The notes under the pieces: generated by a model
What the model saw: only the letters and a program-made list of their open reading frames with translations
Databases searched by the model: none
Told to the model about the DNA's origin: nothing
Made by a program: the position numbers and the translations under genes
Part shown: positions 23,621 through 23,703 of the stretch, in pieces
How the letters are laid out: every line of letters starts with the position of its first letter
How positions within the stretch are numbered: position 1 is the first letter of the stretch
Source: Octopus vulgaris
Lineage: Eukaryota
Direction of reading: 5' to 3'
NCBI GenBank assembly: GCA_951406725.2
Contig: OX597829.1
Location: forward strand, 20,336,001 to 20,400,000
Length of the DNA stretch: 64,000 nucleotides

Positions 23621-23703
23621 AGAGGGTAGCAACAAGGGCGGTGCCCCAGCATGGCCTCAGCCGGATGGCTGAAACAAGTAAAAGAGTAAAAGAGTAAAAG
23701 AGT

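What the first reader, a model, noticed from the sequence alone, without database searches (positions are those of the whole stretch)
23637..23703. Covarying double stem-loop at LINE 3' ends is shared with the dominant SINE (LINE-SINE partnership)
Seen: A has GGCG-GTGC ccca GCAT-GGCC-t-CAGCC ggat GGCTG-AAAC. B (36468-36506, -) has CAGCT cata AGCTG-AAAC. The SINE (58445-58483; also 11529, 16340, 55995) has GTGCT cc AGCAT..CAGTC aaat GACTG-AAAC. C (24894-24941) and E (53443-53490) have GGTG-GTG CTA..TAG-a-CAT-GGCC-tg-GGCCA ata(a/c) TGGCC-(g/a)AAAC. The 5-bp stems change sequence but keep pairing. The SINE also shares A's exact tail AAACAAGTAAAAGAG. Known: stringent LINEs such as UnaL2 recognise a 3' stem-loop that partner SINEs copy. 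Inference: family A is the autonomous partner of this SINE.
Basis: partly seen in the sequence, partly recalled or inferred. Interest (0 to 1): 0.75.

Follow-up and report, generated by a model that had tools for sequence, protein, structure and literature searches.

The report
Octopod LINE–SINE shared two-hairpin tail
A short parasitic repeat in this octopus-like genome ends in the same folded RNA tail as one family of long retrotransposons and probably borrows that family's copying enzyme, a well-known kind of partnership seen here in a new pair.

Summary
Four APE–RT LINE families (A, B, C, E; CR1-like, octopod host) and a CORE-type SINE end in two hairpins, AAAC, then a family-specific repeat. 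The SINE matches A best: 33/39 core plus 14/14 repeat bases, against 31/39 plus 4/11 for B; no significant match to C/E.

Corrections: only hairpin 2 covaries (2 of 12 pairs, about two events, rough p 0.006–0.03); hairpin 1 is conserved, not covarying. 'A is the autonomous partner' is only partly supported. This A copy has three frameshifts. Both SINE loops differ from A's, and loops set specificity in L2 LINEs. At least three further sister lineages have unseen tails.

Unexpected: 5 of 5 LINE 3′ ends and 2 of 2 truncated 5′ ends abut (TA)n, against 1–2 of 6 SINE tails; ORF1 of A, B and E begins with a Myb/SANT-like domain.

The kind is known: CR1-tailed mollusc SINEs with compensatory stem changes are published for bivalves (PMC4824008). 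I found no octopus pair in print in ten searches. Verdict: new member of a known kind.

The parts
23637..23656 (+). LINE A hairpin 1: 7 bp with an internal G·G mismatch and a G·U pair, loop CCCA
23658..23671 (+). LINE A hairpin 2: 5-bp stem, loop GGAT; the covarying hairpin
23672..23702 (+). AAAC spacer and A's terminal repeat (8-base unit GTAAAAGA, three copies), shared with the SINE; (TA)n follows from 23703
19729..20682 (+). LINE A ORF1: Myb/SANT-like N-terminus and one CCCH-like finger (both below Pfam cut-off)
20670..23620 (+). LINE A ORF2 (APE endonuclease + RT), broken into four frames; stop 16 bases before hairpin 1
36444..40392 (-). LINE B copy 1: ORF1 40392-39481, uninterrupted ORF2 frame ending 36533, tail core 36506-36468, terminal repeat (AATC)n
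32363..33949 (+). LINE B copy 2, 5′-truncated, 98.8% identical to B1 apart from indels, (TA)n on both sides; tail core 33888-33926
24869..29390 (-). LINE C: uninterrupted ORF2 frame 28231-24959, tail core 24941-24894 with a longer hairpin 1, 8-base terminal repeat; 5′ limit approximate
49909..53510 (+). LINE E (3′ part, frameshifted), tail core 53443-53490, 10-base terminal repeat; a 5′ part with ORF1 lies at 43699-45903, ending at the N gap
58429..58806 (-). Full-length SINE: tRNA-like head, CORE-like block, short (TA/TG)n centre, ~140 bases of unknown origin, LINE-type tail
14669..16390 (+). Full-length SINE split by a 1.35-kb inverted-repeat element (14902-16247); links head to tail
14081..14377 (+). 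Decayed SINE with an internal deletion; keeps part of hairpin 2
55980..56214 (-). SINE 3′ half (no head)
11385..11582 (+). SINE 3′ half (no head); U·G wobble at a covarying pair of hairpin 2
7036..7268 (+). SINE 3′ half (no head), decayed tail, directly followed by (TA)n
10044..10181 (+). SINE head only

Best explanation
A, B, C and E are CR1-like LINEs that mark their own RNA with a short 3′ signal just after the ORF2 stop: hairpin 1, hairpin 2, AAAC, then a family-specific repeat. ORF2 protein binds this signal and starts target-primed reverse transcription in the repeat. A CORE-type, tRNA-headed SINE took the last ~55 bases from family A or its immediate ancestor, probably by template switching, and has since been copied in trans by A-lineage ORF2 protein. 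Shown here: the sequences, the predicted folds, the family-specific repeats, the best match to A. Inferred from L2/CR1 literature: protein binding, priming in the repeat, trans-mobilisation, direction of transfer.
For: SINE majority tail vs A 33/39 core, 11/11 scored repeat bases and 14/14 as printed; vs B1 31/39 and 4/11. Homology stops at the first base or so of hairpin 1; the ~140 SINE bases upstream match none of the five LINE ends tested, as expected if only the signal was captured. Same fold in 9 of 10 tails; RNAalifold gives it unaided for the 8 A/B/SINE tails. Both differences between A and SINE inside the 12 pairs fall on one pair, as do both between A and B; chance 0.006, or 0.026 if A's own 13-pair fold is the yardstick. 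A vs B: 2 of 24 paired columns differ against 27% in the kilobase upstream, p 0.022; C vs E: 2 of 48 tail bases differ, both unpaired, against 14%, p 0.026. A covariance model from A/B/SINE ranks C's tail as best non-training hit, E 0.001, although B and C ORF2 are 37% identical. A basic stretch lies between EN and RT in B and C, where L2 has its tail-binding region (PMC4176376).
Against: A's ORF2 is frameshifted three times here; these may be assembly errors, which I could not test. Both loops differ between SINE and A. In the linker base between the hairpins three of five SINE copies match B, one matches A. SINE tails are rarely followed by (TA)n (1-2 of 6) while LINE tails always are (5 of 5; Fisher p 0.06 or 0.015). 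Covariation rests on about two events; pairs-with-double-change and pair-type counts did not beat shuffles (121/500, 478/500). The model found E's tail only at E 0.9.
Confidence: 0.55

Rival explanations
1. The true driver is an unsampled (or extinct) sister family of A with the same terminal repeat and loops closer to the SINE's; A is only the nearest relative visible in this window.
For: The A/B group holds at least five lineages: A; B with P0001; P0002/P0003; P0123; P0175 (support 99/97). Tails are visible for two. SINE and A differ at 3 of 8 loop bases. Loop swaps abolish or sharply cut retrotransposition of ZfL2-1 and ZfL2-2 (PMC4176376).
Against: Terminal repeats differ among all four visible families, so an exact 14-base match points to a very close relative of A. 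The sister proteins are unnamed records and may come from other species.
Confidence: 0.3
2. Recognition is loose within the group: ORF2 reads the invariant hairpin 1 stem with its G·G mismatch and the AAAC, so B (intact, young) or even C/E can mobilise the SINE whatever the tail's origin.
For: Hairpin 1 base, G·G mismatch and AAAC are kept in all four families. B1 and C have uninterrupted ORF2 frames. Four L2 LINEs about 60% identical in RT share almost one stem-loop (PMC4176376).
Against: Five SINE copies that differ by 5-13% all keep A's repeat, none shows B's or C's. Hairpin 2 loops and repeats are family-specific, as expected of self-recognition.
Confidence: 0.1
3. The shared tail is a relic or went from SINE to LINE, and the hairpins are not a live recognition signal.
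For: No binding or mobility data; covariation is thin.
Against: The same architecture ends four LINE families down to 37% protein identity, directly after the ORF2 stop, and is more conserved than the coding DNA upstream.
Confidence: 0.05

Closest known systems
BivaCORE-SINE1 / BivaV-SINE2 with CR1-14_CGi (bivalves; Nishihara et al. 2016, PMC4824008; passages, one section and supplement parts 1 and 3 read)
   Same: Mollusc SINE, one of them CORE-type, sharing a CR1-type 3′ tail with conserved stem-loops and compensatory changes; the partner inferred in the same way.
   Different: By eye their printed tails do not resemble this one; different LINE lineage and host class.
UnaL2/UnaSINE and ZfL2-1/ZfL2-2 (stringent L2 LINEs; PMC4176376, passages read; UnaL2 through that paper and PMC3747384)
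   Same: 3′ stem-loop plus terminal repeat; basic region between EN and RT; SINE copies the tail.
   Different: L2 clade, tested by assay; here two tandem hairpins, CR1-like ORF2, nothing tested.
Amniote CR1 (3′ hairpin + 8-base microsatellite; PMC8665684, passages read)
   Same: EN and RT in one ORF, hairpin then an 8-base (A, C) or 10-base (E) repeat.
   Different: Different sequence; repeat unit differs per family here; ORF1 has a Myb/SANT-like domain and CCCH-like fingers.
Octopus OR1 CORE-SINE (Ohshima and Okada 1994; paper not seen, named as a CORE-SINE in PMC4824008)
   Same: Octopus, tRNA-derived head, CORE block.
   Different: Identity could not be tested: no OR1 sequence was available. 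Ohshima's 2013 list of SINE/LINE pairs has no mention of OR1, OR2 or octopus.
Microsatellite-targeting non-LTR elements Kibi, Koshi, Togen and SINEU/Tx1-Mar (PMC4494074, PMC4640811; passages read)
   Same: APE- or RLE-encoding LINEs found inside microsatellites; shared target used as evidence of a SINE's partner.
   Different: Those belong to Tx1, R1 or early-branching groups and target TC, TTC or TG repeats; here a CR1-like group sits in (TA)n and the SINE mostly does not.

Membership tests
CR1-group LINE | APE endonuclease and RT in one ORF | tested here: met
   Pfam RVT_1, Exo_endo_phos_2 and Exo_endo_phos above cut-off in B1 and C ORF2; A has the same parts in four frames
CR1-group LINE | No RNase H and no C-terminal zinc knuckle in ORF2 (feature recalled, not from a call) | tested here: met
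   No such Pfam hit at E 0.1 in B1 or C; C-termini read
CR1-group LINE | 3′ hairpin followed by a short tandem repeat | tested here: met
   feature as described in PMC8665684
CR1 clade (as against L2, Crack, Daphne and kin) | RT groups with labelled CR1 references in a tree | not testable with these tools
   No clade-labelled references among the hits; tree holds unlabelled proteins only
Stringent-type LINE | ORF2 needs and binds its own 3′ stem-loop | not testable with these tools
   Needs an assay; only conservation and fold are shown
CORE-SINE | tRNA-derived head with Pol III A and B boxes | tested here: inconclusive
   ARAGORN and Rfam found no tRNA; box-like motifs are visible by eye in four heads, box consensus recalled
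CORE-SINE | Conserved CORE motif CCTTGGG after the head | tested here: met
   Present in 4 of 4 heads; motif from PMC5786205
CORE-SINE | Similarity over the whole ~65-base CORE domain | tested here: inconclusive
   By eye about 30 bases resemble BivaCORE-SINE2; no CORE consensus could be aligned (SINEBase supplement not held)
Octopus OR1/OR2 | Sequence identity to the published consensus | not testable with these tools
   Sequences not held
LINE–SINE partner pair (A + SINE) | Shared 3′ tail and terminal repeat | tested here: met
   33/39 + 14/14
LINE–SINE partner pair (A + SINE) | The LINE family has an intact ORF2 | tested here: inconclusive
   This copy has three frameshifts; no near-identical protein found; other genomic copies not visible
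LINE–SINE partner pair (A + SINE) | Overlapping periods of activity | not testable with these tools
   One A copy only; SINE 3′ halves differ by 5-13%
LINE–SINE partner pair (A + SINE) | Same insertion-site preference | tested here: inconclusive
   (TA)n after 5 of 5 LINE tails and 1-2 of 6 SINE tails; small, non-independent sample
Target-specific non-LTR element | One sequence type in over 20% of flanks of the family (criterion of PMC4494074) | tested here: inconclusive
   7 of 7 homology-defined LINE ends abut (TA)n, but all lie in one TA-rich cluster

The most novel reading that the evidence does not exclude
These are CR1-group LINEs that home to (TA)n microsatellites through a Myb/SANT-like DNA-binding domain in ORF1 rather than through the endonuclease. 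One 3′ RNA signal is kept or swapped across lineages only 37% identical in ORF2. The partner SINE, copied by ORF2 without ORF1, escapes the targeting and so spreads across the genome while its driver stays penned in TA arrays. That would tie together the octopus excess of SINEs and of TA repeats, and would be a target-specific lineage outside the groups where most are reported.
Probability: 0.2. Interest if true: 0.7.

Novelty: new member of a known kind. Interest (0 to 1): 0.4.

Why it matters
SINEs make up 11.6% of the Octopus vulgaris assembly (PMC13282606) and tRNA-Core SINEs are named a main part of the octopus set (PMC8967140), yet I found no partner LINE named for them. A candidate driver and a 39-base signal make the octopus SINE expansion testable. 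The family-specific loops and repeats give a natural series for asking what a CR1-type ORF2 reads, which has been dissected mainly in L2. The partnership itself is textbook; the (TA)n flanks and the Myb-like ORF1 are the part a specialist might not expect.

Tried and rejected
Self-BLAST without masking was swamped by TA repeats; repeated after masking. Rfam at gathering score found nothing in the window and nothing credible on a SINE head at E 10; ARAGORN found no tRNA, so the head's tRNA source is unnamed. Counting C/E as covarying pairs was rejected: MAFFT does not put their hairpin 2 in register, its 3′ strand repeats the TGGCC of hairpin 1, and a 5-bp hairpin ends at 1.4-2.3% of positions in these LINEs by chance. 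Covariation in hairpin 1 was rejected (0 of 7 pairs). The model hits at 46254 and 61646 (E 0.39, 0.46) showed no tail on reading. Clade assignment by protein atlas gave only generic EN/RT clusters and nothing for ORF1. The PDB profile search with the ORF1 N-terminus gave no significant hit; R2 proteins appeared at E 0.35-0.46. Foldseek had no match at E 0.001; four of the top six rows are Myb-domain or Myb-protein (PHR) entries at E 0.2-0.36, a lead only. Literature: ten searches found no octopus SINE–LINE pair, no paper printing both tail motifs and no TA-targeting CR1; Repbase, Dfam, SINEBase, subscription papers and the Zenodo library of PMC13282606 were not visible and may already hold these families. 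The 23977-24409 and 30000-31790 LINE pieces were left out of all counts as probable assembly artefacts.

Full report
Setting. The window is 38% GC with large (TA)n arrays and one 100-base gap. The best named relative of LINE A's RT region is a protein of the octopod Argonauta hians, 58% identical, which is sister to the A/B group in the tree with support 100/100. A nine-finger C2H2 frame lies at 57487-58335. I take the host to be an octopod; that is inference, not a look-up.

The LINEs. Four families are present. A (ORF1 19729-20682, ORF2 20670-23620, +) has ORF2 in four frames. B1 (-) and C (-) have uninterrupted ORF2 frames with APE endonuclease and RT domains above Pfam cut-offs and no other domain above cut-off. 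E is frameshifted. Protein identity: A-B 69% over the RT region, C-E 85%, B-C 37% over the whole ORF2. The architecture is that of the CR1 group, but I had no labelled references, so the clade is untested.

The tail. In each family the ORF2 stop is followed within 16-26 bases by hairpin 1, hairpin 2, AAAC and a terminal repeat. The repeat is family-specific: 8 bases in A, (AATC)n in B, another 8-mer in C, a 10-mer in E. Nine of ten tails fold into the two hairpins as their minimum-energy structure, z -2.6 to -4.2; the decayed SINE copy at 7213 does not. In longer context (about 150-200 bases) hairpin 2 persists in 8 of 10 and hairpin 1 in 8 of 10 (read from the printed structures). Hairpin 1 keeps a 3-bp base, a G·G mismatch and a G·U pair in all four families; C/E extend its top.

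How much covariation. On the eight A/B/SINE tails 96.8% of cells pair, and 3 of 500 shuffles reach that or the covariation score, but the counts of pairs with a double change (2; 121/500) and of pair types (478/500) are unremarkable. Both double changes are in hairpin 2: C-G to U-A in the SINE at the fourth pair, with one copy at the U·G intermediate, and C-G to U-A in B at the fifth. That is about two events. My family-level estimate of their falling on whole pairs is 0.006, or 0.026 using A's own fold. Loop and linker columns vary more than paired ones (6 of 9 against 4 of 24, p 0.01; p 0.14 if the G·G and AAAC are counted as unpaired). Conservation supports constraint: 2 of 24 paired columns differ between A and B against 27% upstream (p 0.022), and 2 of 48 tail bases between C and E against 14% (p 0.026). 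A covariance model built without C or E ranks C's tail first among non-training hits (E 0.001, rough) and E's at E 0.9. So the structure is real and probably selected; 'covarying double stem-loop' should read 'one conserved hairpin plus one weakly covarying hairpin'.

The SINE. Seven copies: one full (58429-58806, -), one full but split by a 1.35-kb inverted-repeat element (14669-16390), one decayed with an internal deletion (14081-14377), one head only, three 3′ halves starting at the central microsatellite. Order: tRNA-like head, a block with CCTTGGG, which PMC5786205 names as conserved in CORE domains, a (TA/TG)n centre, about 140 bases of unknown origin, and the LINE-type tail. No tRNA was called by ARAGORN or Rfam. 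Octopus OR1 is listed as a CORE-SINE in PMC4824008; this may be it, but I could not see its sequence.

Which LINE. All five intact SINE tails align best with A (scores 60-77), next with B (35-49), and not above chance with C/E. The majority tail differs from A at 6 of 39 core bases and 0 of the next 14; from B1 at 8 of 39 and 7 of the next 11. The match begins at hairpin 1. This supports descent of the tail from A's lineage. Against naming A as the driver: its ORF2 is broken here; nothing closer than 76% was found in two protein searches; three of the eight loop bases differ, and loops carry specificity in ZfL2-1/ZfL2-2 (PMC4176376); and the tree (62 of 241 eligible sequences, the 60 closest to A plus C and E, midpoint root) shows at least three more lineages in the group whose tails I cannot see. 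Those are unnamed records and may be from other species.

An unexpected mismatch. All 5 LINE 3′ ends run straight into (TA)n, and so do the 2 5′ ends that are defined by truncation against B1 (32363 and 17872), which argues for insertion into arrays and not a TA tail. About 12.5% of positions outside LINE bodies, and 1.7% outside the 17.5-44 kb cluster, have that property. SINE tails: 1 of 6 directly, 2 of 6 within five bases; heads 0 of 4 (Fisher p 0.015-0.06). Caveats: the LINEs share arrays and are not independent; two LINE pieces between arrays look like assembly artefacts and were excluded; other elements also abut TA (6 of 34 control ends, and two or three more had TA inside my boundaries); purging of long insertions elsewhere would give the same picture. 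ORF1 of A, B1 and E starts with a Myb/SANT-like domain (Pfam PF13837: E 0.00095, 0.00064, 3.2e-06; only E passes the cut-off). A model of it has three helices (pLDDT 84) and its best structural matches are mostly Myb domains, none significant. That this domain finds (TA)n, and that the SINE moves without ORF1 and so escapes, is speculation.

Known context. Sharing of 3′ tails between SINEs and CR1/L2 LINEs is general (PMC3747384, passages). [quoted passage not shown] Avian CR1 ends in a hairpin plus 8- or 10-base repeat (PMC8665684, passages). Most reported target-specific LINEs belong to early-branching, Tx1 or R1 groups (PMC4640811, passages). Octopus papers seen (PMC13282606, parts 1-2 of 3, supplement listed but not read; PMC8967140, PMC9115989, PMC10294476, passages) name CR1 and CORE-SINE abundance but, in what I read, no partner for them. 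Ten searches found no such pair; repeat databases and subscription papers were out of reach.

Verdict. Observation confirmed with corrections; interpretation partly supported. A new pair of a known kind, interest 0.4. The bolder reading, a TA-homing CR1-like lineage whose SINE escapes the homing, is open at about 0.2.

Noticed in passing
window 17872, 23703, 24868, 32363, 33950, 36443, 53511 (also 19037, 29474, 42440, 43242): Every LINE end abuts a (TA)n array, including two truncated 5′ ends; suggests TA-array targeting or retention.
   Followed up: partly
window 19765-20010 (+), 40153-40392 (-), 43699-43947 (+): ORF1 N-terminus is Myb/SANT-like in A, B and E, followed later by CCCH-like fingers; C has a similar start that appears frameshifted.
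   Followed up: partly
window 61001-63811: Element with 0.9-kb inverted repeats at 98-100% identity (61152-62046, 62897-63791), TA on both sides, and a 231-aa frame that looks to me like a Penelope-type GIY-YIG endonuclease (recalled; Pfam gave no hit).
   Followed up: partly
window 14902-16247: 1.35-kb element with ~280-base inverted repeats inserted in the middle of a SINE copy.
   Followed up: partly
window 40451-42435: AT-rich tandem repeats (periods about 89, 64, 143 and 373) directly upstream of B1's ORF1; possibly a repeated 5′ UTR.
   Followed up: no
window 58485-58540 (-) and the same part of other SINE copies: Two more predicted hairpins just upstream of the LINE-type tail, not shared with any LINE here; one shows paired differences between copies by eye.
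   Followed up: no
window 57487-58335 (+): Single frame with nine C2H2 zinc fingers, probably a host gene exon.
   Followed up: partly
window 23977-24409 and 30000-31790: LINE pieces between TA arrays that look like assembly or polishing artefacts: a near-exact copy of part of A whose few changes lean to TA, and a mosaic of two parts of B.
   Followed up: partly
window 2067-2382, 7291-7573, 8279-8593, 48588-48837, 49124-49428, 58987-59300: A second interspersed repeat family, six copies, with (ATC)n at one end and internal ~62-base repeats; not TA-flanked.
   Followed up: no
window 11127-11333 and 56423-56647: A ~220-base repeat that sits beside the central microsatellite of two headless SINE copies, in opposite orientations.
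   Followed up: no
window 47002-47903: 338-base tandem repeat, 2.7 copies, 97% identical.
   Followed up: no
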